64,000 nt of DNA from Escherichia phage BAU.Micro_ELP-22. The notes under the pieces were generated by a model. The model worked only from the letters and a program-made list of their open reading frames with translations, did not search any database and was not told where the DNA came from. The translations under genes and the position numbers were made by a program. The DNA is taken from the sequence record OR699282.2, one strand, 5' to 3'. This document shows, piece by piece, positions 1,843-63,456 of the stretch (position 1 is its first letter; each line of letters opens with the position of its first letter).

Positions 1843-3255
1843 ATGGCTAAAAGTAAAAAAACAGAAAATCATAATATCGATAACCAAACACTAACTCTAC
1901 TAGATTATAACAGTTCTGATTATGTGAATACAACATCACTAGAATATTCGATGTATACACTAGACCGTGCTATTCCTGGAATTGATGGTCTAAAGAGTTC
2001 ACAACGTAAAGCAATCTTCACATTATCTAAAATTAGTGGGGAAATTAAAACAGTATCATGTGCTGGAAAAATGATTAGTGATGGTATCTATCTTCATGGG
2101 GACACGTCAGCATCAGGAACACTTCAAAATCTAGCATCTCCAGTAGCTAACAACTATCCTCTTATTGGAAAACGTGGTGGTTTTGGTACACAAGTAAACA
2201 GTACACCAGCATCTGCTCGTTACACTTATGTTAAAAAGAATAAGAGTACTGAGATGCTTGTTTTGCGTGATGCTGATATTATACCAATGAAAGAGAACTA
2301 TGACGGGACAACATATGAACCTGTTCATTTCTTGCCTATTATTCCATTATCATTGTTTGGTAATGATAGTATGTCAGTTGGTTATAAGAGTACAATTCTA
2401 CCACATAAAATTGAAGATATTATTGATAATTGTATTCGTGCTATTGATAAAAAACCACTAAAAGAAATGACCCCATATTATGTTTCATGTGGTGCAAGTG
2501 ATGTTGTGACTAAGCTTGATGAAAATAAGTATGAATTCTATGGTAAAGCTGAGGTTATTGATGCAAGCACTGTTAAAGTAACAGGCTTACCACCTAATTA
2601 CAGTATTGAGAAATTCATCGAAAAACTAATCAAAATGAGTGATGATGGTGAGATTCGTGATTATGACAATGATAGTACTGATGTAATTGATATTACCATT
2701 AAACTTCCACGTGGAACGTCAGCTAAATGGACAGAGATGGATGTTATTGAGTATTTTGGCATTAACAAAAAAATGACTCAACATTTAACTGTTCTAGGTG
2801 AAAATGGCAAAGTGAAAGTTTACGATACGACAATGGATTTGATTAAAGACTTCGTTGATTTCCGTTTCAAATATTACATCAAGCGTTATGAAAAGAAACT
2901 TGATGATTGTGCTGCTGAAGTTCGTTATAAAATTCTAATTAAAGAATGTTTCGATAATGATATGATTGCTAAGGTAAAAGGATTTGCAAACCGTGCTGAA
3001 ATGGTTGAATTCGTTAAATCGTTAAATACCGAAATTGAAGCAACGGAAGAGAATATTCAAAGCATTGTAAACTTCCCTTCATATCGCTGGACGCAAGATA
3101 ATTATCAATCAGTACTACAAGATATTCAAGATAATCTTGATTTGATGGATAAGTACAATGAACTGTTATCTAATCATGACTTAATTTGGGACATTTATAA
3201 ATCTGAACTAAAAGAACTAAGAAAGATTGACTTTACTCCTAAATCAGACAATTGA
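1843..3255 (+). CDS. 52: DNA topoisomerase II medium subunit (GyrA-like breakage-reunion domain)
   Basis: 470 aa; LDRAIPGIDGLKSSQRKAIF resembles GyrA/ParC N-terminal signature; immediately follows the large subunit. Confidence 0.8.
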   Translation: MAKSKKTENHNIDNQTLTLLDYNSSDYVNTTSLEYSMYTLDRAIPGIDGLKSSQRKAIFTLSKISGEIKTVSCAGKMISDGIYLHGDTSASGTLQNLASPVANNYPLIGKRGGFGTQVNSTPASARYTYVKKNKSTEMLVLRDADIIPMKENYDGTTYEPVHFLPIIPLSLFGNDSMSVGYKSTILPHKIEDIIDNCIRAIDKKPLKEMTPYYVSCGASDVVTKLDENKYEFYGKAEVIDASTVKVTGLPPNYSIEKFIEKLIKMSDDGEIRDYDNDSTDVIDITIKLPRGTSAKWTEMDVIEYFGINKKMTQHLTVLGENGKVKVYDTTMDLIKDFVDFRFKYYIKRYEKKLDDCAAEVRYKILIKECFDNDMIAKVKGFANRAEMVEFVKSLNTEIEATEENIQSIVNFPSYRWTQDNYQSVLQDIQDNLDLMDKYNELLSNHDLIWDIYKSELKELRKIDFTPKSDN

Positions 3256-3265
3256 TATATTTAAT

Positions 3266-3290
3266 GGAAGACCTTATGGGTCTTCCTTGT
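3266..3290 (+). terminator. Candidate hairpin terminator after topoisomerase genes
   Basis: ggaagacc-ttat-gggtcttcc stem-loop followed by T-rich tract. Confidence 0.45.
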
Positions 3291-3296
3291 CCTTTA

Positions 3297-3304
3297 TATA
3301 AATA
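3297..3304 (+). promoter_or_regulatory. T4-type late promoter box TATAAATA
   Basis: Exact TATAAATA about 40 nt upstream of the 3343 start. Confidence 0.5.
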
Positions 3305-3342
3305 ATCTATAGATAATGGCAGCTTGGCTATGGAGAATTATA

Positions 3343-5736
3343 ATGACAACTTTTACCCCACGATGGGATATAAAAGCCGATGCTCGATATATACAAGAAG
3401 GACAAGACATTCTTGTGCGTTTGAGTATCAATAAAGAAAGCACAACGGATGATAGCTATGTATTAAATGAAGATGAATACTTAGAAATGATTCTTAACAT
3501 ACAATGCTTGGATAGTTCAGGTGCTGTATTTGATCCAGAACCACATTATACTTTTTATGTTGGTAATGACGAAAATACTTTTGTTCCTATTTCAGATGGT
3601 ACAACTGGTAATAAATTAGTAAATGGTAAGCATAAGTGTAAAATCAGCAAAAATGAATTTAACTTATCTGCAAGTACTAATAGTGAAGATGTTTATTTTA
3701 TAAAAATTCATTGTAAAAATGATGGAACCTATAATAATACAGAAATTATAAATTTTTATTTACAAGCAGTAAATGTTATGTATTTTGGAAATATTTCACC
3801 AAGTGGTGTTCTAGGATTAACTGATACATCAATAACATATGATAGTCAAGAAGTTTGGGTTACACCCGGAGTTGAGATTGGTGATGACAAAAAGCTTTAT
3901 TGTATTGGTGATGTTGAGTATGGCTCCAACAGTACATTGTTCGTTCAAGGATTTGGAAGAAGACGACCTTTCATTTTGGGTACTGACATGACTACTGATA
4001 TTACACCTCGTGTCTTTTTTCCAGCATATCGTTTGATTGACATGGATATTTCTGAAGTTCCAGATAAACATATTACGAATGATTTCGCAGTATTCAAGCC
4101 AGCACAATCAACATGGCCTATTTCTGGTATAAACAAAGAAGTAAAAGTTAATATTCAAAATAGAAATGGTAATTTAATTGACACTGGAATGGTGTTCAAC
4201 CCAAATGGGCAATTATTGCAAACATTTTTATATGACTCAGATGCTTGTGATGCATATTTTAAAGTTGAGATTGTTGATATATTAAGTACATACACCGAAG
4301 AAAGTGAAAGGTTTGCTATCAATCAACGATATAAAGCATATCAAATGTGGGTTTGTCCTGAAGACATAGATACTATATATTCTATTTCAGAAAAACCACT
4401 ACCCAATCATTTATATCAATTAAAAGATAATGTTGTGTATCCATACGTAATTAGTGGTGAATACGATAATGGAACAATTAAGCCCGTTTATGATAGTAGT
4501 GATTGGATTGATTTAGGATATTATGACTCTACTCTTGGTGATAATATCATTGGTATGCAAAAAATGTTCAGGGTTTTGATAAACGCAGAAGAAGGTAATA
4601 ATATAAACTTTATTACTGATAGTGATTTAGGAACCATACATGTTGGTGAATATTTTGGAGACAGTATATATCCTAAAATTGAAACTGATAGCTCTAATCA
4701 AGTTTCGTATGTTTTAGATGGTGGTGATGACATTAGAAAGTATGGGATAGATTTGACACCAGATGGATATCTTGTAGGAACTGCATATGCCAAAAGTATT
4801 GATTTTAGTGAAAATGATGATATTAAATTATCGTTTTATGTTAAAGCATTTAGTACTGAAGGTGGTGAAGCAAGAAAAATATTTAACCTTAAGATTGTAA
4901 GAGGATTCGGACAGAATTATTTGAGTGCACATGTATTACCTTCGGTTGCATTTGAGAGAGAATGGTTTAAATGTATAAGTACTTCATCATTCACTAATCA
5001 ACTATTTTTCCGACAATCTGACAATAGATATGGTCTTCAGAAAATACCGAAGATGTTATTGAAAGAAAACTTCCTAAGTCAAACGTATCCATATACTAAC
5101 CTTTCTGATATCAAGAAAGTATTGAGAAATAGTATAATTAACCCAAATGGAACTACTATTCCAAATGGAAAATTTAAAATGGTAATGGGTAATTATAAAA
5201 TAATATCAGCACTTGACAATCAAGGTAACTTACAATATGATCTATTATATAGAGAGGTTTTACCTGAAGGTTCTTTAGTATCTGTATCCAAAAATCCACG
5301 TCAATATACTCAAATCGACAACGGTCAGCTTGGTGAATTATTTGGTTTACGACAAAATATTTTTCAGGCTATTGGTGAAGACACAACCAACTTAGTAAAA
5401 GACCCAACCGATTTACAAAATCGTGGTCTATACGTTGATGCGATACCAAGTATCAGTGATGAAATGCTTGATACGGTTCCAAGATTTATGAATCACCCAT
5501 ACATTGAAGATGGTATACAGAAAAAATTCATGCCTATCATTCCAGTTGCATATTGTCAACCAGGCAAAGGTGAAGCATTTTTCAACACTTTACTTCAGAA
5601 CAATGAACATGGTACAATGGTAGGTGTAGAGTTCGAAATCACATCGGTTGAATTCGGATACTTTTCGCATGAATCAGTGAATTATGTTTCAGATACATTT
5701 TTGATTACATTGCAAAACAATAACATAGGAGGTTAA
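3343..5736 (+). CDS. Large hypothetical protein (797 aa), possibly late/structural
   Basis: Long ORF; GGAG RBS before ATG 3343 (track start 3316 lacks RBS); late promoter box upstream; no motif recognised. Confidence 0.6.
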   Translation: MTTFTPRWDIKADARYIQEGQDILVRLSINKESTTDDSYVLNEDEYLEMILNIQCLDSSGAVFDPEPHYTFYVGNDENTFVPISDGTTGNKLVNGKHKCKISKNEFNLSASTNSEDVYFIKIHCKNDGTYNNTEIINFYLQAVNVMYFGNISPSGVLGLTDTSITYDSQEVWVTPGVEIGDDKKLYCIGDVEYGSNSTLFVQGFGRRRPFILGTDMTTDITPRVFFPAYRLIDMDISEVPDKHITNDFAVFKPAQSTWPISGINKEVKVNIQNRNGNLIDTGMVFNPNGQLLQTFLYDSDACDAYFKVEIVDILSTYTEESERFAINQRYKAYQMWVCPEDIDTIYSISEKPLPNHLYQLKDNVVYPYVISGEYDNGTIKPVYDSSDWIDLGYYDSTLGDNIIGMQKMFRVLINAEEGNNINFITDSDLGTIHVGEYFGDSIYPKIETDSSNQVSYVLDGGDDIRKYGIDLTPDGYLVGTAYAKSIDFSENDDIKLSFYVKAFSTEGGEARKIFNLKIVRGFGQNYLSAHVLPSVAFEREWFKCISTSSFTNQLFFRQSDNRYGLQKIPKMLLKENFLSQTYPYTNLSDIKKVLRNSIINPNGTTIPNGKFKMVMGNYKIISALDNQGNLQYDLLYREVLPEGSLVSVSKNPRQYTQIDNGQLGELFGLRQNIFQAIGEDTTNLVKDPTDLQNRGLYVDAIPSISDEMLDTVPRFMNHPYIEDGIQKKFMPIIPVAYCQPGKGEAFFNTLLQNNEHGTMVGVEFEITSVEFGYFSHESVNYVSDTFLITLQNNNIGG

Positions 5737-5737
5737 T

Positions 5738-6049
5738 ATGTTTAATCCGTTTTTTGACCCGTCTGGAATGACGGAAAAAGAACTACAGTTAAAAATTAAT
5801 GAACAGTCAATGCGTTTAACTTCTGCTCGTGCTGCTGGCCTAAGCGACATGATTATTGGTAATATGCAAACTGTCTTAAATCAATGTTATGCTGAACTAG
5901 AACTTCGCCAAGGACAAAAAGAAAAAACTGTTTATGACGAAGAAGACCCATGTATCTTCGATATGGATTCATATCTAACTGACAACGAAGAGGCCCAGAA
6001 GAAGAAAAATGAAAGTACAAGGAAACAGATTTATAAGTCCCAATGGTGA
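5738..6049 (+). CDS. Hypothetical protein
   Basis: 103 aa; GGAGG RBS directly upstream; start 1 nt after preceding stop. Confidence 0.6.
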   Translation: MFNPFFDPSGMTEKELQLKINEQSMRLTSARAAGLSDMIIGNMQTVLNQCYAELELRQGQKEKTVYDEEDPCIFDMDSYLTDNEEAQKKKNESTRKQIYKSQW

Positions 6050-6527
6050 TGTGAAATGTAATCTTAACGCAGTTGTTTATGCAATCAATTGCGGTGCAGA
6101 TATCCAGTACTTACAATTGCAGGAAATTGATGAACCTGAAAGGTTGAAATTCAATGATAACTGTAAAAAATTTGGCTTAGAACAACGTATGCTGGATTAT
6201 ACAATTGAGCATGATAAAAATCATGAACTGTGGCGATATGATCCAGTATACGACAATATAAATCTGCGTGACTTTTTCTTACAAAAATGCACATCCGATG
6301 AAGCACGAAAACGTGTTGAGTATGAACTTGATTTATATGAATATTATAATATGACAAAGCTACTAAGATGTATGATATGGCTTGTTGATTATATGGAAGA
6401 AAATGAGATCTTTTGGGGTCTAGGTCGTGGAAGCTCTGTTGCATCATACTGTTTGTTTTTGATTGGACTACATATGGTAGATTCATTGAAGTACGAACTT
6501 GATGTTAACGAATTTTTGAAATGGTAG
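6009..6527 (+). CDS. Hypothetical protein
   Basis: 172 aa ORF; overlaps previous gene by 41 nt; weak RBS. Confidence 0.45.
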   Translation: MKVQGNRFISPNGDVKCNLNAVVYAINCGADIQYLQLQEIDEPERLKFNDNCKKFGLEQRMLDYTIEHDKNHELWRYDPVYDNINLRDFFLQKCTSDEARKRVEYELDLYEYYNMTKLLRCMIWLVDYMEENEIFWGLGRGSSVASYCLFLIGLHMVDSLKYELDVNEFLKW

Positions 6528-6545
6528 AAAAACATGTGATATAAT
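6516..6545 (+). promoter_or_regulatory. Sigma70-type early promoter
   Basis: TTGAAA, 18 nt spacer, GATATAAT extended -10. Confidence 0.5.
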
Positions 6546-6590
6546 GTTTATTGTAGGCTTATATCACACATACAATAAAAGGATTTTGAT

Positions 6591-6935
6591 ATGTCTAAAC
6601 ATACAACTTATCGTGGTACAACAATTGACATGGATATGCTCAAGTACCAAAATCAACATCAGGTAGCATTAGGTAATGCTAATTTAAACGCACGTGGTGA
6701 TAAAATCGGTTCAGGTGGAACAATTATTAAAACTCGTGAAGAGTTGATTCAAGAAAAAGAACGAGAAATGCAAATTCCTGATTATATCCCTGAACATCAA
6801 CTTCATAGTACTGAACATGGTACGGATGAAGTATGGGATGATGAGAGTTTTGAAGTTAAGCCCGAAGAACAAGAAGCTGAGGTTTCTGAAGAGAAGAAAG
6901 CACCACGTCGAGCTAGAACCAAAGATCAGGAGTAA
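6591..6935 (+). CDS. Hypothetical acidic protein
   Basis: 114 aa; AAGGA RBS. Confidence 0.55.
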   Translation: MSKHTTYRGTTIDMDMLKYQNQHQVALGNANLNARGDKIGSGGTIIKTREELIQEKEREMQIPDYIPEHQLHSTEHGTDEVWDDESFEVKPEEQEAEVSEEKKAPRRARTKDQE

Positions 6936-6943
6936 TATATTAA

Positions 6944-7270
6944 ATGACTAATAAAGTAATGACTGCATGTAAAGGTAAAGTACTGGTAACTGAACTGGAA
7001 CATGGTGAACGCAAAACAGCAGGTGGTATCGTTTTAACAAACGATGACGGTAAAATTAGAGGTATTCGTTCTCGCTGGGCAAAAGTTTATTCTGTAGGCG
7101 AAGACATTACTGATATTAAAGAAGGTCAATGGATTTTAATTGATCATGGTCGATGGTCAAGAACTATTGAAGTTGATGGTATTGAATTAAACTTGGTTGA
7201 TTATCCAGCCGCAGTTAGTTTAGTTTCAGATGAAGATCCACGAACTAAAATGCTAACCTTTGGTCGTTAA
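6944..7270 (+). CDS. GroES-like cochaperonin (functional analogue of T4 gp31 / CocO-like)
   Basis: 108 aa; KTAGGIVLT matches GroES KSAGGIVLT; GGAG RBS. Confidence 0.55.
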   Translation: MTNKVMTACKGKVLVTELEHGERKTAGGIVLTNDDGKIRGIRSRWAKVYSVGEDITDIKEGQWILIDHGRWSRTIEVDGIELNLVDYPAAVSLVSDEDPRTKMLTFGR

Positions 7271-7323
7271 TAAAATATAATTAAAGCTCGGATGAATATC
7301 TGGGCTTTTTATTTGGACAGATT

Positions 7324-7596
7324 TTGATGATAACTGATGATGGAAAATTTAGTTTCAAGGATGTAACATTAGTATCTAAAAACGGAAGATTCATGTTTGA
7401 AGATAGAAAAAATACCAAATATGTATATGAAGTTTCACATGATATGTTTAAAGTTTTATTAGTTGCATCAGCCCAAGCTGAAAGTACTGGGATTAAAAAT
7501 AAGGCAAATTCTTTTAATTTTTTATTAAATCAATTGGAAATGACAGAAGAACTTTTCACGGCTTTATTATATAATTCAGCCGATTGGATTCTATAA
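7324..7596 (+). CDS. Hypothetical protein
   Basis: 90 aa ORF. Confidence 0.4.
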   Translation: MMITDDGKFSFKDVTLVSKNGRFMFEDRKNTKYVYEVSHDMFKVLLVASAQAESTGIKNKANSFNFLLNQLEMTEELFTALLYNSADWIL

Positions 7597-7619
7597 CACG
7601 TACACATAAGGAAATACAA

Positions 7620-8573
7620 ATGACCACACTATGGACTGAAAAATATCGCCCACAATCAATGGAAGATTATGTATCAAAAAACGATGCACTACGCCAGAAA
7701 ATGGAAGAATGGATTAAGACTGGTGACATTCCACATATTGGGTTTTTTGGCCCAGCAGGAACTGGTAAAACATCTGCGATCAAAGTACTAATTAATGGAC
7801 TAGTTCAAAATGGACACCTTGATCCAAGTGATGTGACCACGCTTAACATGTCCGATGAAGGCATTGATGCTGTTCGTGACAAAATCGATGCCGCAGCAAA
7901 GCTATCATGTTTTGGTAGATATCGTATTTTTGTTCTTGAAGAAATGGAGCAGATGAACCACAAAGCACAAGGTAGTTTGAAACGTGTAATGGAAGACTAT
8001 CATGAAAATGCTCGCTTTATTTTAACAAGTAACGAACCACATAAAATTCAAAAACCTATCATTTCTCGTGTTCAAGTTATTACAATCGAAAAGCATGATA
8101 TGGAACAATTCATGACTCGAATTTATAATATTCTTCTAGCAGAAGGTGTTGATTTGAGTAGTGATGATAGTGTTGAACAAGTTCAAAAGTACATCAATGC
8201 TTCCTATCCTGATTTCCGTAAAACACTAAACGTATTGCAAAGTTCAGTTGTTGATGGTAAGCTAGTAAAACTTGAAGATAGTATTGAAAATTCAGCAGGG
8301 TATCGTACTGCAATTGTTGAAGCATTAAAGGCAGGCAACATTCGCCAAATGCGTGAACAAATTGTACAAAATATCCCTGATGATGAGATGGATGCATTTT
8401 TCTCTTACTTGTACAGAAATGCTGAAATGTTCAGTACTGATGAAATCACACTGATGAAGATTAAAGTTAAAATTCGTGATGCAGTTGTTAAGCAAGCAAC
8501 CGTATCAGATCGTGAAATGAATCTTAGTGCTTTACTGTGTGAAATTGACCTAATTTGTTCGGGGAACATGTAA
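7620..8573 (+). CDS. 44: Clamp loader large subunit (RFC-like AAA+ ATPase)
   Basis: WTEKYRP motif, Walker A GPAGTGKTS, Walker B VLEEME; AGGA RBS at internal ATG 7620. Confidence 0.85.
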   Translation: MTTLWTEKYRPQSMEDYVSKNDALRQKMEEWIKTGDIPHIGFFGPAGTGKTSAIKVLINGLVQNGHLDPSDVTTLNMSDEGIDAVRDKIDAAAKLSCFGRYRIFVLEEMEQMNHKAQGSLKRVMEDYHENARFILTSNEPHKIQKPIISRVQVITIEKHDMEQFMTRIYNILLAEGVDLSSDDSVEQVQKYINASYPDFRKTLNVLQSSVVDGKLVKLEDSIENSAGYRTAIVEALKAGNIRQMREQIVQNIPDDEMDAFFSYLYRNAEMFSTDEITLMKIKVKIRDAVVKQATVSDREMNLSALLCEIDLICSGNM

Positions 8574-9211: not shown

Positions 9212-9238
9212 GGGGTTTGATTCAAACCCCTTTTGTTG
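9212..9238 (+). terminator. Rho-independent terminator
   Basis: ggggtttga/tcaaacccc hairpin followed by TTTT. Confidence 0.7.
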
Positions 9239-9295
9239 TATTTTAAAAGTAGTAAATAGTATTATATGTGCTAGTTTTTAAGGATAATATAAAAT

Positions 9296-9859
9296 ATGGA
9301 CGATTTAGATTATACAGATAATGCTATTCAGCAGTTGTATGATAACAGTGGTATGTTAGATATACTTCTTGCTGTAGAGAAATATTTCGATGATAATGAT
9401 TTATATGCGTATAAAGGAATTATTGAGGGTGAGTTGGTAGAGGGGCCAATTGTAAGTAAGTATTGGTGTACTGTTACATTTAAATACTATCGTGAAAATT
9501 TTCCCGATCCTACCGCATTCTCTATTTTAGAGAAACATGGAACTAAAGTATATGTTAAAGCTGATTATGAAATAACTCCTATTAAAGAACCAAATCGTCA
9601 AGCTGACATGAAAAGTGTAGCGACACAATCTGGCTCTGTACGTATACCAAAAAATGAAAGAATCCCAGTACTATTGGTTAGAGTGCAGATTCCACGAAAC
9701 TTGATTAATCCAGAAAGTTTTGATGAATATAAACTAATGGCAGCAGAATTCAATAGTAATCCAATGAATTCTCCTGAGAATATTGAAGAACCTGTAACTG
9801 GTGATGATGTGGATTTAGATGTAGAAGTAACGGATGAGACACAAGAAGGTGGAATGTAA
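9296..9859 (+). CDS. Hypothetical protein
   Basis: 187 aa ORF. Confidence 0.5.
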   Translation: MDDLDYTDNAIQQLYDNSGMLDILLAVEKYFDDNDLYAYKGIIEGELVEGPIVSKYWCTVTFKYYRENFPDPTAFSILEKHGTKVYVKADYEITPIKEPNRQADMKSVATQSGSVRIPKNERIPVLLVRVQIPRNLINPESFDEYKLMAAEFNSNPMNSPENIEEPVTGDDVDLDVEVTDETQEGGM

Positions 9860-10539
9860 TGAAAAAGAAATTAAATGAACAAGGCTTACGTCCGCAAGTT
9901 CTCAAAGATTTGATTCATCCTATCATTAGTGTTGATGAATATACTCCTAAAATTGAAGATAGTAATATTGTTATTATGTTTCAGGTACTTAACAATTTTG
10001 ATGCAGCATATGATTTATCTTCTTTTATTGAAAAATCACCTATTGATGTAGCTGATACAGAAGCAGCAGAAACACCAAATTTAGATGGTCGATATCAAGT
10101 TTATGTTGAAATGGAACGAAATGCTGAATTCCCTGAAAAACTTTTACGTTTAATTAAAACTATTGAAAATATTTGTCCAGACCCAGGTTGGAAAATACAA
10201 CTATATGGTGTTAATGACCCAATCGATGTTGATTTTGAAGAAATACAGCAGAGAATTGATTTGGGTATTCCTAGTTCAATTAGTGAGTTCCTTGATTATG
10301 CTGGTGTTTCAGTAATCAAAGAAGGAAACATGTTGACATTAAAAACAGCATATGGTAAATTACATTACAGTACTGGAAGCGGTTTTGTTTCAGAAACATA
10401 TGTGAAAAAGTTATTAAAGAATGATACACAATTAGACACTTCTCGTCTTAGTTCCATACTAGGGGAAAGCTATACAGTACTACGAAGTGGTGATCAATAT
10501 GTAATTGGAAGAAACGGGAAATATTTGGTGTTGCGATGA
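9859..10539 (+). CDS. Hypothetical protein
   Basis: 226 aa; TAATG start overlap. Confidence 0.55.
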   Translation: MKKKLNEQGLRPQVLKDLIHPIISVDEYTPKIEDSNIVIMFQVLNNFDAAYDLSSFIEKSPIDVADTEAAETPNLDGRYQVYVEMERNAEFPEKLLRLIKTIENICPDPGWKIQLYGVNDPIDVDFEEIQQRIDLGIPSSISEFLDYAGVSVIKEGNMLTLKTAYGKLHYSTGSGFVSETYVKKLLKNDTQLDTSRLSSILGESYTVLRSGDQYVIGRNGKYLVLR

Positions 10540-33962: not shown

Positions 33963-34298
<336 letters not shown>

Positions 34299-34299
34299 A

Positions 34300-34482
34300 A
34301 TGACACACGAAGAATGGATGTCCAAACAGCATAAAGAACATGACTGCTTTGGGAATGGCATTCGTCAGGTACATTATGATATATTAAGAGATGAAAATCT
34401 TTTCAGGTCATATGTTTTGGATACCAGAAAACCCTGGTTTATATGCGAACTGGCATTTAGAAAGTCAAATAATCAAAACTAA
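34300..34482 (+). CDS. MTHEEW mini-protein family member 3
   Basis: 60 aa; MTHEEWM...WFICELAFRK. Confidence 0.5.
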   Translation: MTHEEWMSKQHKEHDCFGNGIRQVHYDILRDENLFRSYVLDTRKPWFICELAFRKSNNQN

Positions 34483-34498
34483 ACAAGGAATACAAAAA

Positions 34499-34717
34499 AT
34501 GGAAACAACTTTATTAGAAGTTATTCAATCATTAAAACCTGAAGATGAGGTTCAAGTACTACTACATGGTTATCGTGTAAAAGGTACTGTGGTTTTAGTC
34601 AATGATACAACATTGGTTATTACAGAAACAAACCCATATGATAGTAATCAACTTGCCAATATCCATATCGATATCACTGGAATTATTGGTGTCGGTGTAT
34701 CTAAAACACTTGCATAA
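34499..34717 (+). CDS. Hypothetical protein
   Basis: 72 aa from ATG with AGGAA RBS. Confidence 0.45.
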   Translation: METTLLEVIQSLKPEDEVQVLLHGYRVKGTVVLVNDTTLVITETNPYDSNQLANIHIDITGIIGVGVSKTLA

Positions 34718-34770
34718 ATCATTAATTCATTATATAATGATTATCACTGGTTCTAGATGAGGATAATATT

Positions 34771-35043
34771 ATGCATTTTGAAAAATTCAACGTAAATCGT
34801 AACACACGCATTGAAGTTCTTTATGAAACTCAAGACACCATTAGTATTCGTACAAGTAGTGGGGATGTATATCATGACTGTACGATTGGCTGGGAACAGG
34901 GAAGAACGCGTAGTGCAGTATTTGATAATTATCGCTTTTATCAAGGAGACACTACGATTTGGCCTGAATACGTAGAAGATATTGCGTTTGAAGATGAACA
35001 TAAAGATGAATTTATCAAATTTAATCCTCAAACTGAATCATAA
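34771..35043 (+). CDS. Hypothetical protein
   Basis: 90 aa; GAGGA RBS. Confidence 0.5.
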   Translation: MHFEKFNVNRNTRIEVLYETQDTISIRTSSGDVYHDCTIGWEQGRTRSAVFDNYRFYQGDTTIWPEYVEDIAFEDEHKDEFIKFNPQTES

Positions 35044-35048
35044 ATAAT

Positions 35049-35176
<128 letters not shown>

Positions 35177-35180
35177 AAAT

Positions 35181-35282
<102 letters not shown>

Positions 35283-35287
35283 AAACC

Positions 35288-35448
35288 ATGACGCATGAAG
35301 AATGGATGAATGACATTAATTTTAGATATTCGGGTATCGGTAAATGGCTAAAGTATCATTGGGAATTCATTTCAGAGCCACATATGTATGATAAACTTAT
35401 CAACGATCCAGCATATGAAATGTACTTAATTGAACTACTGGTACGAAT

Positions 35449-35452
<4 letters not shown>
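35288..35452 (+). CDS. MTHEEW mini-protein family member 4
   Basis: 54 aa; MTHEEWMNDINF...; below ORF-track threshold. Confidence 0.4.
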
Positions 35453-35614
<162 letters not shown>

Positions 35615-35624
35615 AAAAAAAAGA

Positions 35625-36033
<409 letters not shown>

Positions 36034-36037
<4 letters not shown>

Positions 36038-36061
36038 CTAAATAATTCAGTACTGTATAAT
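36034..36061 (+). promoter_or_regulatory. Early promoter, conserved-spacer family
   Basis: TTGACT-aaataattcagtactg-TATAAT; drives tRNA-Gly. Confidence 0.7.
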
Positions 36062-36063
36062 GC

Positions 36064-36147
<84 letters not shown>

Positions 36148-36167
36148 TTAATAATTCAAAGGTGAAT

Positions 36168-36344
36168 ATGATGCTATCACACAAAACAGCAACTGTTGAA
36201 AATATTGAATCATTATCTGCACAAGAATTGGTTGACAAAATTAAAGAAGTATGTGATAATAATGGCATTGATATGAATGATACATTTATTAGTGTAGGTT
36301 ATGGTGATTTAGAAATTCAATCTAAAACACTATATTATACTTGA
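36168..36344 (+). CDS. Small hypothetical protein
   Basis: 58 aa from ATG with AAGGTGA RBS. Confidence 0.45.
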   Translation: MMLSHKTATVENIESLSAQELVDKIKEVCDNNGIDMNDTFISVGYGDLEIQSKTLYYT

Positions 36345-36362
36345 CTAAATAGTTCAGTACCG
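36341..36362 (+). repeat. Degenerate copy of conserved-spacer promoter (has -35 and spacer, lacks -10)
   Basis: TTGACTaaatagttcagtacc followed by GAAGGAG rather than TATAAT. Confidence 0.5.
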
Positions 36363-36400
36363 AAGGAGATTAATATGTTTAAAGATGAACGTCCAGATTT

Positions 36401-36441
<41 letters not shown>

Positions 36442-36448
36442 GAATTCC

Positions 36449-36788
36449 ACAATCAGACGTATATGGTGTAAGTTACGTCGATGCAATCCAGAACAAGATC
36501 TCTGGTACTCTAGGAAGTGGTGAATGTTAACCTAGACGGGTTTGATAATTGGACGATAGGCAATTATTACTTGACTAGCAGGTTGAAACTAGAGGTGACA
36601 GTCCTTCACCAAACTGGAAAACCGGATGGACTTTTATTTAAAAGGGTAAGGCGTGGAAATATGTTTACAGAAGTTGCTTTTAGTAGCCTGTACGCCCCAC
36701 GTCAAGGTAGCCGAAAGGCAAGTTAAAACGGATGGTTATAAAGCTGAATTAACAGCGGCGTTTAAAAGCGTCACCATCCATTTTTTTT
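36449..36788 (+). ncRNA. Candidate structured non-coding RNA (about 340 nt) within the tRNA island
   Basis: Starts at predicted TSS of promoter 36413; GC-enriched versus flanks; ends in ggatggt...caccatcc stem plus T8; only internal ORF has GTG start. Confidence 0.35.
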
Positions 36789-36804
36789 AATTAAAGTTGG
36801 TGAT

Positions 36805-37194
<390 letters not shown>

Positions 37195-37210
37195 TATTAA
37201 GTATTGATAT

Positions 37211-37456
<246 letters not shown>

Positions 37457-37461
37457 CTAAA

Positions 37462-37626
<165 letters not shown>

Positions 37627-37650
37627 ACGAAATTACAATAGGAAATTAAA

Positions 37651-37836
37651 ATGCAACTTTTAATTCTTTCAATATTGTATATTATTATAATGGTTCCGAT
37701 ATCAATACGTTTAATTACAGTTGAACGATTTTTATCGAAACATGGAAATAGATCTATGATCTTTGTACCAATCGGGTTGATATTGTTTGGTATATTTTCA
37801 TTTATAATGGGAATTAACGCTACATTCATTTCATAG
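37651..37836 (+). CDS. Small membrane protein
   Basis: 61 aa; two hydrophobic helices; AGGAAA RBS. Confidence 0.45.
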   Translation: MQLLILSILYIIIMVPISIRLITVERFLSKHGNRSMIFVPIGLILFGIFSFIMGINATFIS

Positions 37837-37845
37837 GAAACAAAT

Positions 37846-38103
<258 letters not shown>

Positions 38104-38111
38104 GAATTTAA

Positions 38112-38513
38112 ATGAAAAAGAATGACTTGATCAAAATGCTTCAAGAGATTGACGGCAATCCAGAGATTGTTATTTGGAATGGATATGTCGATGATTATAT
38201 GAACATCGAAAAAGGCTTGACTAAAATCACTCTAGTCAAAGAAACTGAACAGTTCCTTCTGGAAGCATTAGTGCACGAATGGTGCAAACGTAACAATACA
38301 TTCGACATTCCAGAAGATCAACGAACTAAGATTGCAGAACGTGCTAAAGAACTGCATAAGAAACGCGAATACGATTTCCAGAACCCACATGTTACTGAAG
38401 ACGAATTCAATCACTGGTACGGTAAAAAGAAATTGACAAAGTATGTCCTTTCACCTAAACTACGTGGTAAGACTTCACTTGGTGTATTCAACGCCGCAGA
38501 CTTAAACTACTAG
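38112..38513 (+). CDS. Hypothetical protein (paralogue of next gene)
   Basis: 133 aa; N-terminus MKKNDLIKMLQEIDGNPEIV parallels next ORF. Confidence 0.55.
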   Translation: MKKNDLIKMLQEIDGNPEIVIWNGYVDDYMNIEKGLTKITLVKETEQFLLEALVHEWCKRNNTFDIPEDQRTKIAERAKELHKKREYDFQNPHVTEDEFNHWYGKKKLTKYVLSPKLRGKTSLGVFNAADLNY

Positions 38514-38522
38514 CGGGTATTA

Positions 38523-39071
<549 letters not shown>

Positions 39072-39073
39072 TA

Positions 39074-39130
<57 letters not shown>

Positions 39131-39143
39131 AGTAAGAGTAAAA

Positions 39144-39316
<173 letters not shown>

Positions 39317-39328
39317 TATCTTACTTCT

Positions 39329-39407
<79 letters not shown>

Positions 39408-39424
39408 CAAAATAAAGGTACACT

Positions 39425-44961: not shown

Positions 44962-46116
44962 TTATGCGTTGTAACCAACTATTACGACTGAGCAGTCAAG
45001 CGGTTCTACTACTTTAAGAATTACATTATCATCTTCATCCACTTGTATTTCACTATGAACTACATGATTGTCTGAAGAATATAATTGAACTTGTGGTAGT
45101 GCTTTACCATGTTCAGTTACTGGAACTGAGATAGAGTACATAGAGTCTTCACCGAGAACCCACTCACTTAAAGTATATTCTTTATGGAAAGGAGTAGTAT
45201 GCAGTGTTTTTCCGATTATACTCAAAGAAACAGGTAAATTATCAGTTTGATACACAGTAATATTACCTTCTGCGTCTACAGAAAGATCTACACCAACTTG
45301 ATATAAGTCACCACTGTATGCTTGAAGTGCTAAGTACTGTCCACGATCATGAACATCAAATGGAACAACCGCAGAAAATACACCTTCCGAAACAGGTTCA
45401 AATTGGGATAGAAGAACTGATGTAACAAAATCAATATCCTCACCACTTTCAAGAACATCAAATTCCACCACTTTAGTGTTATAATATGGAGAAGTGAGTG
45501 TAGCAGTACCTTTCCCTGATTGTGTGATAACATCAACTGGAATTGTAAATGCATCATTAACAAATTGGGTAGTAAAGTATTCTGTCCCGTCTGGTAATAC
45601 GATTGTTATTACCATACCGTTAGTATCAATTTCTGAACCAGTGTTGAATAATTTACCACTAATTGAGTCATTACCAACAAATACTGGTGAAATGAGAATA
45701 TTATCTATATCACGATCTATAATACCACATTCAGGTGTATACATATGATACAAGGTTTGTGAACTACCTAAAATTGTTTTATGTAGCATGAATTTATATA
45801 CAAATCCAGTATCAGTTTCTTGTGGCTCTTCAGAATATCCACGAACAAAGAAACAATTTTTATTAATTTCACTTAATAGTTGGTCATTAGTTTTATTGTA
45901 ATTTAATAGATAACCTTTATTATCTTTAGTTGTTATTTGTACTTTACGATATATTATATTAGTTCTTGGATCAACTAAATCATATAATCTATGGCTTCTT
46001 TGGCGATAGATTCTAATATTTTTTAGTCTAGTTCCATCATTGAGGATTGCACCATCAACAACATAACCACATTCACCAAACTTATAGCGTCCAGCCGCAG
46101 CAATTGACCTTGACAT
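44962..46116 (-). CDS. Hypothetical protein (only minus-strand gene in window)
   Basis: 384 aa; GGAGGG RBS on minus strand upstream of start; no motif recognised. Confidence 0.6.
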   Translation of the reverse strand: MSRSIAAAGRYKFGECGYVVDGAILNDGTRLKNIRIYRQRSHRLYDLVDPRTNIIYRKVQITTKDNKGYLLNYNKTNDQLLSEINKNCFFVRGYSEEPQETDTGFVYKFMLHKTILGSSQTLYHMYTPECGIIDRDIDNILISPVFVGNDSISGKLFNTGSEIDTNGMVITIVLPDGTEYFTTQFVNDAFTIPVDVITQSGKGTATLTSPYYNTKVVEFDVLESGEDIDFVTSVLLSQFEPVSEGVFSAVVPFDVHDRGQYLALQAYSGDLYQVGVDLSVDAEGNITVYQTDNLPVSLSIIGKTLHTTPFHKEYTLSEWVLGEDSMYSISVPVTEHGKALPQVQLYSSDNHVVHSEIQVDEDDNVILKVVEPLDCSVVIVGYNA

Positions 46117-46232
46117 TTATCCCTCCATTGGTATAATTATTATAACGTATTTATTATGCATATCCAAAAAATGAGCTTGACTGGTGTATGATTTGGTGTT
46201 ATCATGTAGTGAATGAATAATGAGGTGTTTTT

Positions 46233-63448: not shown

Positions 63449-63456
63449 TATAAATA
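63449..63456 (+). promoter_or_regulatory. T4-type late promoter box TATAAATA
   Basis: Exact TATAAATA 19 nt upstream of the 63475 start. Confidence 0.5.

What the first reader, a model, noticed from the sequence alone, without database searches (positions are those of the whole stretch)
3297..5736. Large 797-aa protein with a late promoter, placed between topoisomerase and early genes
A TATAAATA box precedes this ORF, the largest in the window, with no recognisable motifs. A late-expressed large protein embedded among replication/early genes may be a structural or injected protein.
Basis: partly seen in the sequence, partly recalled or inferred. Interest (0 to 1): 0.4.

Follow-up and report, generated by a model that had tools for sequence, protein, structure and literature searches.

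The report
Late-expressed jumbo-phage virion appendage protein
The 797-aa gene is a virion protein of PBECO4/121Q-type jumbo coliphages that published mass spectrometry has already detected; it sits behind a T4-style late promoter, and structure prediction shows a string of Ig-like domains ending in a histidine-less "2H phosphoesterase" fold, so it is a fairly ordinary find with one odd domain.

Summary
TATAAATA lies at 3297-3304. The ORF at 3343-5736 encodes 797 aa and is the largest in the window.

The window is an Asteriusvirus jumbo coliphage, 100% identical to PBECO4, SHEFM2K and G17 over the finding's coordinates. The protein is identical to phAPEC6 gp158c, which was detected in purified virions by MS (9 peptides). 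Its RaK2 orthologue gp160 was also detected (6 peptides).

The late-promoter reading is supported by sequence, not by transcript data:
- TATAAATA is depleted overall.
- 10 of 13 exact copies in 214 kb sit 24-75 nt upstream of genes, including the major capsid and scaffold genes.
- The phage encodes a gp55-family late sigma factor.
- An ATAAATA core precedes the orthologue in every lineage examined.

The C-terminal module (about residues 400-785) is the conserved part. The regions N-terminal to it vary: a domain insertion in some orthologues, and CBM5/12, Ig or peptidase modules in distant relatives.

Best reading: a low-copy, Hoc-like external virion appendage. Its location and function are inferred, not shown. 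Interest is modest.

The parts
3266..3286 (+). Terminator-like hairpin (9 bp stem, 5 GC pairs, loop 3, tail TTGTCCTTTA) that closes the topoisomerase transcription unit just before the promoter box
   Evidence: The same hairpin-then-box arrangement is seen at 9212-9230 and before the box at 63449. A hairpin is also present at the RaK2 orthologous site.
3297..3304 (+). TATAAATA, a T4-type late promoter -10 box, 46 nt upstream of the start codon
   Evidence: Searches show the motif is depleted; 10 of 13 exact copies in 214 kb are 24-75 nt upstream of genes, including MCP gp225c and scaffold gp226c; an ATAAATA-type core is kept before the orthologue in 121Q, the Vibrio phage, L008 and L012, and TAAATA in RaK2. 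Function as a promoter is inferred.
3332..3335 (+). Shine-Dalgarno GGAG, 7 nt before ATG 3343
   Evidence: Read directly from the sequence. It supports 3343 rather than 3316 as the start.
3343..5736 (+). CDS for a 797-aa virion protein (equal to phAPEC6 gp158c, PBECO4/SHEFM2K 'virion structural protein', PHROG 13911)
3343..4902 (+). Residues 1-520: array of about 4-5 Ig-like/β-sandwich domains (cohesin-, Calx-β-, cadherin-like). Residues about 420-520 correspond to a He_PIG-type Ig domain in relatives. This is the more variable half and the site of a 215-aa insertion in the Serratia BF and Erwinia orthologues (between residues 259 and 265)
3391..3399 (+). I17-Q18-E19 followed by G20: the only conserved N-terminal match to the T4-type prohead-protease rule (L/I-x-E). 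Significance unresolved
   Evidence: conserved in 93% of homologues. The same rule applied to the capsid protein (cut after the L41-T42-E43 tripeptide) gives 37.2 kDa, matching the published 37 kDa mature 121Q capsid protein (PMC5646251).
4903..5733 (+). Residues 521-797: compact α+β domain with the 2H/LigT phosphoesterase fold (β-α-β-α-β-β twice) but no H-x-T/S motifs. Most conserved part of the protein
5738..7308 (+). Genes possibly co-transcribed from the late promoter (103-aa ORF, DnaE fragment, 114-aa ORF, GroES-like 6944-7270) up to the next strong terminator at 7283-7308
   Evidence: No strong terminator-like site lies between 5736 and 7283; only a weak 6-bp hairpin at 7194-7211, inside the GroES-like gene. 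The gene block is conserved in distant relatives. Co-transcription is inferred; a σ70-like site at 6516-6545 may also feed it.

Best explanation
The gene encodes a late-transcribed, low-copy structural component of the jumbo-phage virion, most likely an externally displayed appendage built on the plan of T4 Hoc.

**Transcription (inferred).** Transcription from the topoisomerase genes stops at the hairpin 3266-3286. Host RNA polymerase carrying the phage gp55-family late sigma factor restarts at TATAAATA 3297. The same signal drives the capsid and scaffold genes.

**Protein (predicted and inferred).** The product has a variable N-terminal string of Ig-like β-sandwich domains. It also has a conserved C-terminal module: a He_PIG-type Ig domain followed by a 2H/LigT-fold domain that has lost both catalytic His-x-Thr/Ser motifs. 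I infer that the conserved C-terminal module docks the protein on the particle. I infer that the variable N-terminal domains project outward and make weak contacts with surface carbohydrates. In distant relatives these N-terminal positions carry CBM5/12, extra Ig domains or a serine-peptidase domain.

**Shown:** the gene, its virion association (published MS on the identical protein), and the promoter motif and its genome-wide association with late or structural genes.

**Inferred:** late timing, external location, the anchor/payload polarity, and non-catalytic status of the 2H-like domain.
For: **Virion association**
- phAPEC6 gp158c is identical in amino-acid sequence and was found with 9 peptides at 17.1% coverage.
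- RaK2 gp160 was found with 6 peptides.
- 121Q gp54 is annotated 'structural protein', and the protein matches PHROG 13911.

**Copy number**
- Coverage resembles that of the portal and baseplate parts (10-24%). It is well below the 65-75% coverage of the highest-coverage small virion proteins of unknown function in Table 1.

**Promoter**
- The motif is depleted: 4 copies against 12.3 expected.
- 10 of 13 copies in 214 kb are correctly placed upstream of genes. Six of these genes encode MS-detected virion proteins, including MCP and scaffold. The others are EndoVII, a baseplate-cluster ORF, a portal-adjacent ORF and a GroES operon.
- The late sigma gp237c matches phrog_234 at E 8e-18 and sits beside the gp46/47-like genes, as gene 55 does in T4 (the T4 gene order is from memory).
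- The box is conserved at the orthologous site in five other lineages.
- The CBB paper reports ATAAATA before structural genes of CBB and GAP32 (PMC5259590).

**Architecture**
- AF2 model pLDDT 85.
- Ig, cadherin, cohesin and Calx-β matches.

**Polarity**
- Identity rises from 40% in the N-terminal region to 58% in the C-terminal region.
- A 215-aa insertion lies at residues 259/265 in some orthologues.
- Distant relatives share only residues about 400-785, with He_PIG, CBM_5_12, Big_9, Cadherin_5 or Pro-kumamolisin domains N-terminal to that region.

**Analogy and open slots on the particle**
- phAPEC6 has unassigned capsid and tail fibres (PMC7247149).
Against: - No experiment places the protein on the outside of the particle.
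- The MS data cannot tell head from tail or inside from outside.
- The CBB orthologue (inferred from gene order to be CBB_326; the locus tag was not looked up) is not in the CBB virion MS table.
- The first 40 residues are fairly conserved and carry a conserved I-x-E|G that fits the prohead-protease rule. That would suit a head-internal protein.
- The phage has an inner body of unknown composition.
- Some distant relatives have about 400 aa after the shared module, so it is not always terminal.
- Late timing rests on motif logic only.
- Absence of H-x-T/S was judged from topology and conservation, not from a residue-level superposition, because no coordinates were available.
Confidence: 0.55

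Rival explanations
1. Head-internal protein (inner-body component or ejected protein). It would be packed into the prohead via its conserved N-terminal 19 residues, trimmed after E19 by the T4-like prohead protease, and perhaps delivered into the cell with the DNA.
For: - 121Q and phAPEC6 have a φKZ-like inner body whose proteins are unknown.
- I17-x-E19|G20 is conserved in 93% of homologues. The same L/I-x-E rule reproduces the mature capsid-protein mass.
- The gene lies among DNA-metabolism genes. The neighbouring topoisomerase subunit and other DNA-handling proteins are also in the virion MS.
Against: - AF2 places residues 7-12 and 22-30 as strands of the first folded β-sandwich, not as a free propeptide.
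- From general knowledge (Fraser et al. 2006, cited in PMC5259590), Ig-like, He_PIG and CBM5/12 modules in phages are found on exposed structural proteins. Relatives of this protein carry such modules.
- A single L/I-x-E in 30 residues is expected by chance in about a quarter of proteins (my estimate).
- A 280-aa globular α+β domain could not pass the tail channel folded.
Confidence: 0.2
2. Tail or baseplate building block that is needed for assembly rather than being an accessory adhesin, for example part of the fibre rings on the sheath or of the baseplate periphery.
For: - Low-copy MS signal similar to baseplate and tail-fibre proteins.
- phAPEC6 shows fibres at three rings on the sheath and a complex baseplate with unassigned densities (Figure 5 legend).
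- The gene is strictly conserved in every relative found and keeps its gene position.
Against: - No similarity to any known baseplate or tail protein in PDB, Pfam or PHROGs.
- The gene is far from the tail and baseplate cluster (gp238-gp256).
- This rival overlaps with the best explanation and differs only in location and essentiality.
Confidence: 0.15
3. Virion-borne enzyme. The 2H-fold domain would be an active, non-canonical phosphodiesterase. It might degrade cyclic-nucleotide immune signals, process RNA ends on entry, or cut a phosphodiester-linked surface polymer.
For: - Fold match to Usb1, LigT, CPDase, Acb1 and poxvirus cGAMP PDE.
- Many invariant charged residues in the close family: R539, R557, D560, K574, E575, N576, K619, D625, R637, E638, R670, R714, H718.
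- One GenBank record labels the protein '5'-nucleotidase' (H10).
Against: - The two strands that carry H-x-T/S in 2H enzymes read MLLKENF (571-577) and IIPVAYC (732-738). The alternative strand reads MLDT (708-711). None contains a histidine.
- H718 and H756 are the only conserved histidines, and both are lost in distant relatives.
- No Pfam 2H family hit, and hhalign against LigT gave probability 0.
- Related phages encode a separate Acb1 (fHe-Yen9-04).
Confidence: 0.07
4. Not a true virion component. It would be a replication-associated or topoisomerase-associated protein that co-purifies with particles.
For: - Adjacency to the topoisomerase II genes is conserved in most of the lineage.
- Replication proteins (topoisomerase subunit, SSB, UvsX-like) also appear in the phAPEC6 'virion' list.
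- Not found in the CBB MS table.
Against: - Detected independently in two phages, with more peptides than the likely contaminants: 9 against 2 for the topoisomerase subunit.
- It has its own terminator-plus-late-promoter cassette, shared with capsid genes.
- The Ig-like architecture has no parallel in replication proteins.
- In Atu_ph07 no large ORF follows the topoisomerase genes, so the structurally related protein must lie elsewhere in that genome.
Confidence: 0.03

Closest known systems
phAPEC6 gp158c / RaK2 gp160 / 121Q gp54 (PHROG 13911, 'virion structural protein' of RaK2-like jumbo phages)
   Same: Identical (phAPEC6), 97% identical (121Q) or 54% identical (RaK2) protein. Same length and same position after the topoisomerase II genes. 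Detected in virions by MS.
   Different: Nothing differs; this is the same family. No function, location or fold had been assigned in the papers read here.
T4 Hoc (highly antigenic outer capsid protein) and Hoc-like Ig-string decoration proteins
   Same: The plan is the same: a string of variable Ig-like domains joined to a conserved C-terminal domain. Both are virion proteins, late genes and dispensable-looking appendages thought to bind surface glycans weakly.
   Different: There is no sequence relation. This protein is twice as long. Its conserved module is a He_PIG Ig plus a 280-aa 2H-fold domain rather than Hoc's small capsid-binding domain. The MS signal suggests far fewer copies than a per-hexamer decoration. 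Location is unknown.
2H phosphoesterase superfamily (LigT/ThpR, CPDase, Usb1, AKAP18 central domain, Acb1, coronavirus ns2/ORF4b)
   Different: Both H-x-T/S motifs are absent, and there is no conserved histidine across the wider family. No profile similarity. The domain is about 100 residues larger, with an extra hairpin and long helices. It is fused to Ig-like domains in a structural protein.
T4 late genes (gp55-dependent TATAAATA promoters)
   Same: Identical 8-bp box. A gp55-family sigma is encoded by the phage. The box precedes the capsid, scaffold, EndoVII and baseplate-cluster genes.
   Different: gp33 and gp45 homologues were not detected in the related phage CBB (PMC5259590). The sigma is 279 aa against 185 aa and only about 24% identical to T4 gp55. 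Orthologous sites in other genera keep only (A)TAAATA.

Membership tests
PHROG 13911 / RaK2-like 'virion structural protein' family | Full-length profile match | tested here: met
   E = 0, 1467.7 bits, residues 1-796 on profile 1-788/789. 71 homologues, nearly all full length.
PHROG 13911 / RaK2-like 'virion structural protein' family | Presence in purified virions | not testable with these tools
   Taken from the literature for the identical protein (phAPEC6 gp158c) and the RaK2 orthologue.
2H phosphoesterase superfamily | Bilobed α+β LigT-like fold | tested here: met
2H phosphoesterase superfamily | Two H-x-T/S-x motifs on the two central strands | tested here: not met
   The topologically equivalent strands 571-577 (MLLKENF) and 732-738 (IIPVAYC), or alternatively 708-711 (MLDT), contain no His. 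H718 and H756 are not conserved in distant relatives. This was judged by secondary-structure order, not by 3D superposition.
2H phosphoesterase superfamily | Sequence-profile similarity to a 2H family | tested here: not met
   No Pfam or NCBIfam 2H hit. No PDB hit with a profile. hhalign against E. coli, T. thermophilus and D. radiodurans LigT gave probability 0.04%.
2H phosphoesterase superfamily | Phosphodiesterase or ligase activity | not testable with these tools
   Needs an enzyme assay.
Hoc-type Ig-string decoration proteins | String of Ig-like domains | tested here: met
Hoc-type Ig-string decoration proteins | Conserved C-terminal virion-binding domain with variable N-terminal domains | tested here: inconclusive
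   The conservation gradient, the insertion site and the module swapping fit this. Binding itself is untested, and some relatives extend beyond the module.
Hoc-type Ig-string decoration proteins | Homology to Hoc / position at hexamer centres | tested here: not met
   No PHROG or Pfam hit other than 13911. Position cannot be tested here. So it works like Hoc at most; it is not a member.
T4-type late gene | TATAAATA box at promoter distance upstream of the gene | tested here: met
   Box at 3297-3304, 46 nt before the ATG. Same spacing (43-55 nt) as before MCP, scaffold, gp238, gp037c and gp035c.
T4-type late gene | gp55-family sigma factor in the same genome | tested here: met
   phAPEC6 gp237c matches phrog_234 'late sigma transcription factor' at E 8.4e-18. 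blastp to T4 gp55 gives 24.5% identity over 139 aa. The gene lies outside this window.
T4-type late gene | Late, replication-coupled transcription (gp33/gp45 co-activation) | not testable with these tools
   No transcriptome exists for this clade. The CBB paper reports no gp33 or gp45 homologues.
Prohead-targeted internal proteins (T4 IP/Alt type) | N-terminal targeting peptide removed at L/I-x-E by the prohead protease | tested here: inconclusive
   A conserved I17-x-E19|G20 exists. It lies within a predicted folded domain. No peptide-level MS data were available.

The most novel reading that the evidence does not exclude
The histidine-less 2H-fold domain may not be a mere anchor. It could be a neo-functionalised ligand-binding or catalytic head carried on the virion. 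For example, it could act as a sponge or hydrolase for nucleotide-based immune signals delivered at entry, or recognise or cleave a phosphodiester-containing surface polymer. That would make this the first structural-protein-borne member of the 2H fold.
Probability: 0.08. Interest if true: 0.7.

Novelty: new member of a known kind. Interest (0 to 1): 0.28.

Why it matters
The protein is in the virion, and it carries the same late signal as the capsid genes.

It also gives the first domain-level description of a protein found in every RaK2-like relative examined here. That description is a candidate identity for one of the unassigned fibres seen on phAPEC6, 121Q and CBB particles. It also provides an example of a 2H phosphoesterase fold that has lost its catalytic motifs inside a structural protein.

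The promoter analysis gives a usable rule (terminator hairpin followed by TATAAATA) for marking late units scattered through these 350-kb genomes.

None of this overturns current views, so the value is mainly for annotation.

Tried and rejected
**Searches that led nowhere**
- Sequence searches gave nothing beyond the family itself. Pfam gave only a sub-threshold DUF6656 hit at E 0.0085. NCBIfam, PDB by sequence and by profile, and hhalign against LigT gave nothing.
- The afdb50 library was not available.
- A tblastn of T4 gp55 against all phages did not surface the jumbo phages in the 60 listed rows of 2026 matching records. The sigma factor was found instead through the phAPEC6 annotation and PHROGs.
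- phAPEC6 supplementary peptide lists are not held, so the N-terminal processing question stays open.
- The RaK2 and Sharanji papers say nothing about promoters.
- The Atu_ph07 relative is not next to its topoisomerase genes, and its virion status could not be read.
- Gene neighbourhoods of distant relatives all showed the same replication-type block. They could not tell head from tail.

**Ideas considered and rejected**
- Topoisomerase accessory factor: rejected because the gene has its own terminator/promoter cassette, is found in virion MS, and has an Ig architecture.
- Abundant per-hexamer decoration protein: rejected because MS coverage is low.
- Active Acb1-like enzyme: rejected because the H-x-T/S motifs are absent.
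- The '5'-nucleotidase' label of one GenBank record: no support found.
Full report
**What is there**

The window is AT-rich (about 33% GC), and almost all genes are on the + strand. The stretch 3297-5736 is 100% identical to several Escherichia jumbo phages of the genus Asteriusvirus (PBECO4, SHEFM2K, G17, SP27, Sharanji). It is 99.8% identical to phAPEC6 and 92% identical to 121Q.

The ORF 3316..5736 has 806 codons. All database annotations, the GGAG at 3332-3335, and the invariant M1 of 41 aligned homologues put the start at ATG 3343, giving 797 aa. It is the largest ORF in the window. TATAAATA lies at 3297-3304.

**Is it in the virion?**

The protein is identical in amino-acid sequence to phAPEC6 gp158c.
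- Table 1 of Wagemans et al. 2020 (PMC7247149) lists gp158c among 62 proteins found by ESI-MS/MS in purified particles: 90.30 kDa, 9 unique peptides, 17.1% coverage.
- The RaK2 orthologue gp160 (54% identity) is in Table S3 of Šimoliūnas et al. 2013 as a putative virion protein with 6 peptides and 8.1% coverage (PMC3622015).
- 121Q gp54 is annotated 'structural protein'.
- The family is PHROG 13911, 'virion structural protein'.
- The CBB orthologue (inferred from gene order to be CBB_326; the locus tag was not looked up) is not in the CBB MS table.

Its coverage is like that of the portal, baseplate wedge and tail-fibre proteins. It is far below the 65-75% seen for the highest-coverage small virion proteins of unknown function in Table 1. 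I read this as a low copy number, which is an inference.

**Is the box a late promoter?**

- *Depletion.* TATAAATA occurs 4 times in the window against 12.3 ± 3.2 in shuffles. ATAAATA occurs 10 times on the + strand and 2 on the − strand, against 13-26 and 16-22 expected under Markov models. The word is avoided, as expected for a functional signal.
- *Placement in the window.* The three + strand copies lie 46, 44 and 50 nt before the starts of gp158c, gp037c and gp035c. All three products are in the phAPEC6 virion list. The only large minus-strand gene (gp077, also a virion protein) has ATAAATA about 30 nt upstream.
- *Placement over 214 kb.* I extended the test to the window plus phAPEC6 88-238 kb (214 kb in total). 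Of 13 exact copies, 10 are intergenic, correctly oriented and 24-75 nt upstream of a gene.
  - Those genes are the major capsid protein gp225c, scaffold gp226c, gp238, gp158c, gp037c and gp035c (all MS-positive).
  - The remaining four are EndoVII gp234, gp242 in the baseplate cluster, gp232 next to the portal region, and gp214c ahead of a GroES gene.
  - Three copies are intragenic.
  - Such upstream windows make up only about 4% of strand positions, so 10 of 13 is far beyond chance (my rough binomial estimate is about 1e-12).
- *Sigma factor.* phAPEC6 encodes gp237c, annotated 'sigma factor for late transcription'. It lies beside the gp46/47-like genes, as gene 55 does in T4 (the T4 gene order is from memory). 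It matches phrog_234 'late sigma transcription factor' at E 8e-18. It aligns with T4 gp55 at 24.5% identity over 139 aa.
- *Conservation at the orthologous site.* The box is TATAAATA in 121Q, AGTAAATA in RaK2, GATAAATA in Vibrio phage 2.275.O, GATAAATA in the metagenomic relative L008, and AATAAATA in L012.
- *Transcription-unit boundary.* A terminator-like hairpin (3266-3286) ends the topoisomerase unit just before the box. The same hairpin-then-box cassette precedes other late units.
- *Literature.* Buttimer et al. 2017 found ATAAATA before 35 structure-related genes of CBB and noted it in GAP32. They also found a gp55-like sigma but no gp33 or gp45 homologues (PMC5259590).

Late timing itself has not been measured for this phage group. 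It remains an inference.

**What is the protein?**

Sequence methods find nothing. An AlphaFold2 model built on 42 homologues is confident by domain (mean pLDDT 85) but not in the relative placement of domains (pTM 0.49).
- A model of residues 515-797 alone is compact (pTM 0.85). In the viral structure library it hits the K64-1 orthologue first. Next come several large phage proteins labelled 'Ig' or 'extracellular serine proteinase' (Atu_ph07). After those come genuine phage 2'-5' RNA ligase/CPDase proteins (E 8e-7 to 4e-4, TMt 0.56-0.64), bat coronavirus ORF4b and, weakly, Acb1.

**Is the 2H-like domain an enzyme?**

Probably not.
- The order of elements (β527-533, α535-551, β571-577, α587-597, β611-624, β630-641, then α664-694, a small hairpin, β732-738, α743-752, β763-777, β780-789) matches LigT element for element (the LigT layout is recalled from the structures found).
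- The strands that carry H-x-T/S in 2H enzymes read MLLKENF and IIPVAYC here. The alternative strand reads MLDT. None has a histidine.
- In the close family only H718 and H756 are conserved histidines.
- In distant relatives the conserved residues are Y556, R557, D560, G564, N576, G616, K619, A623, D625, G628, Y632, Y636, E638, P713, Y737, P740 and G741. No histidine is among them.
- hhalign against three LigT sequences gave no signal.

I could not superpose coordinates, so this is a topological argument.

**Which end is conserved?**

- Identity to the window protein rises from 0.40 for residues 1-150 to 0.58 for residues 421-797.
- The Serratia BF and Erwinia orthologues carry a 215-aa in-frame insertion between residues 259 and 265.
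- In Vibrio phage 2.275.O the gene is split into 273-aa and 638-aa ORFs, with the box before the first.
- A profile search of 1.8 billion representatives found 52 proteins. The distant ones share only residues about 400-785. N-terminal to that module they carry He_PIG, CBM_5_12, Big_9, Cadherin_5 or a Pro-kumamolisin (S53 peptidase) domain.

**Context**

The gene order topoisomerase II large, topoisomerase II medium, X, small ORF, about 170-aa DnaE fragment, small ORF, GroES-like, clamp loader is kept in RaK2, the Vibrio phage and L008. In the most distant relatives (L012 and the P0115 contig), the downstream part, from X to the clamp loader, is kept. So being embedded among replication genes is an old, inherited arrangement of this lineage, not a peculiarity of this phage.

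Other virion genes (gp161c/162c, gp149c/150c) are interspersed in the same way. No strong terminator lies between 5736 and 7283-7308. The late transcript may therefore also cover the GroES-like gene.

**Verdict on mechanism**

Best reading (0.55): a late, low-copy, externally displayed appendage. The conserved C-terminal He_PIG plus dead-2H module would be the docking part, and the N-terminal Ig-like domains the exposed, adhesive part.

Main rival (0.2): a head-internal or inner-body protein.
- For it: a conserved I17-x-E19|G20 fits the L/I-x-E rule of the prohead protease. The same rule applied to the capsid protein (cut after the L41-T42-E43 tripeptide) gives 37.2 kDa, equal to the published mature mass.
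- Against it: these residues lie inside a predicted folded domain, and the domain types are those of exposed proteins.

Other rivals:
- A core tail or baseplate part (0.15).
- An active non-canonical phosphodiesterase (0.07).
- A co-purifying non-structural protein (0.03).

**Novelty and interest**

The gene, its virion association and the late-type motif in this phage group are already in databases and papers. New here are:
- the genome-scale support for the promoter;
- the domain architecture, in particular a histidine-less 2H fold as the conserved core of a structural protein;
- the Hoc-like polarity.

It is a new member of a known kind (Ig-bearing virion appendages), of modest interest.

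Noticed in passing
window 3343-8573; L007, L008, L012: The block X, small ORF, about 170-aa DnaE fragment (PF07733), small ORF, Cpn10/GroES-like, clamp loader is kept even in relatives that share only E 1e-5 to 1e-37 similarity with X. The truncated DnaE fragment cannot be a polymerase. Why it travels with X and GroES is unexplained.
   Followed up: partly
window 3297-7308; L009 around 44224 (-): Both GroES-like genes of the phage lie downstream of a TATAAATA box with no strong intervening terminator (window 6944-7270; phAPEC6 gp213c). This suggests late co-expression of co-chaperonins with capsid genes.
   Followed up: partly
window 1843-3255: The topoisomerase II medium subunit (phAPEC6 gp159c), the gene just upstream, is itself in the published virion proteome (2 peptides). 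SSB, UvsX-like and thymidylate synthase are there too. These could be packaged proteins or contaminants.
   Followed up: no
whole window: TATAAATA and ATAAATA are strongly under-represented, most of all on the non-coding strand (ATAAATA 2 copies against about 16-22 expected). This is consistent with selection against spurious late promoters.
   Followed up: partly
window 33962, 35040, 39257 (+); tRNAs at 33985-39408: Seven tRNA genes cluster here: Gly ×2, Ser ×2, Met, Asn, Thr. ATAAATA boxes lie 23-78 nt upstream of tRNA-Gly (33985), tRNA-Ser (35087) and tRNA-Thr (39335). Some overlap TATAAT-like hexamers.
   Followed up: no
window 44962-46116 (-), box at about 46148-46154: The only large minus-strand gene of the window (phAPEC6 gp077, a virion protein with 10 peptides) has its own ATAAATA about 30 nt upstream on the minus strand.
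   Followed up: partly
H70-H76 (Serratia BF and Erwinia SNUABM phages); L006 2796-4505; L007 7171-9908: Lineage-specific rearrangements around the gene. There is a 215-aa in-frame domain insertion in X (1009-aa proteins). RaK2 has a Hef-like homing endonuclease inserted between the two topoisomerase genes. Vibrio phage 2.275.O has X split into two ORFs.
   Followed up: partly
L010 3122-4297 (-) (phAPEC6 gp225c): Applying the T4 L/I-x-E cleavage rule to the major capsid protein (cut after the L41-T42-E43 tripeptide) gives 37.2 kDa. This matches the published 37 kDa mature 121Q capsid protein, so the prohead protease seems to keep T4-like specificity.
   Followed up: partly
window 9212-9298: The virion gene pair at 9296-10539 (phAPEC6 gp150c/gp149c) is preceded by a terminator hairpin (9212-9230) and only a TAAATA core (9253). 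The late-promoter consensus therefore appears looser than the exact 8-mer.
   Followed up: no
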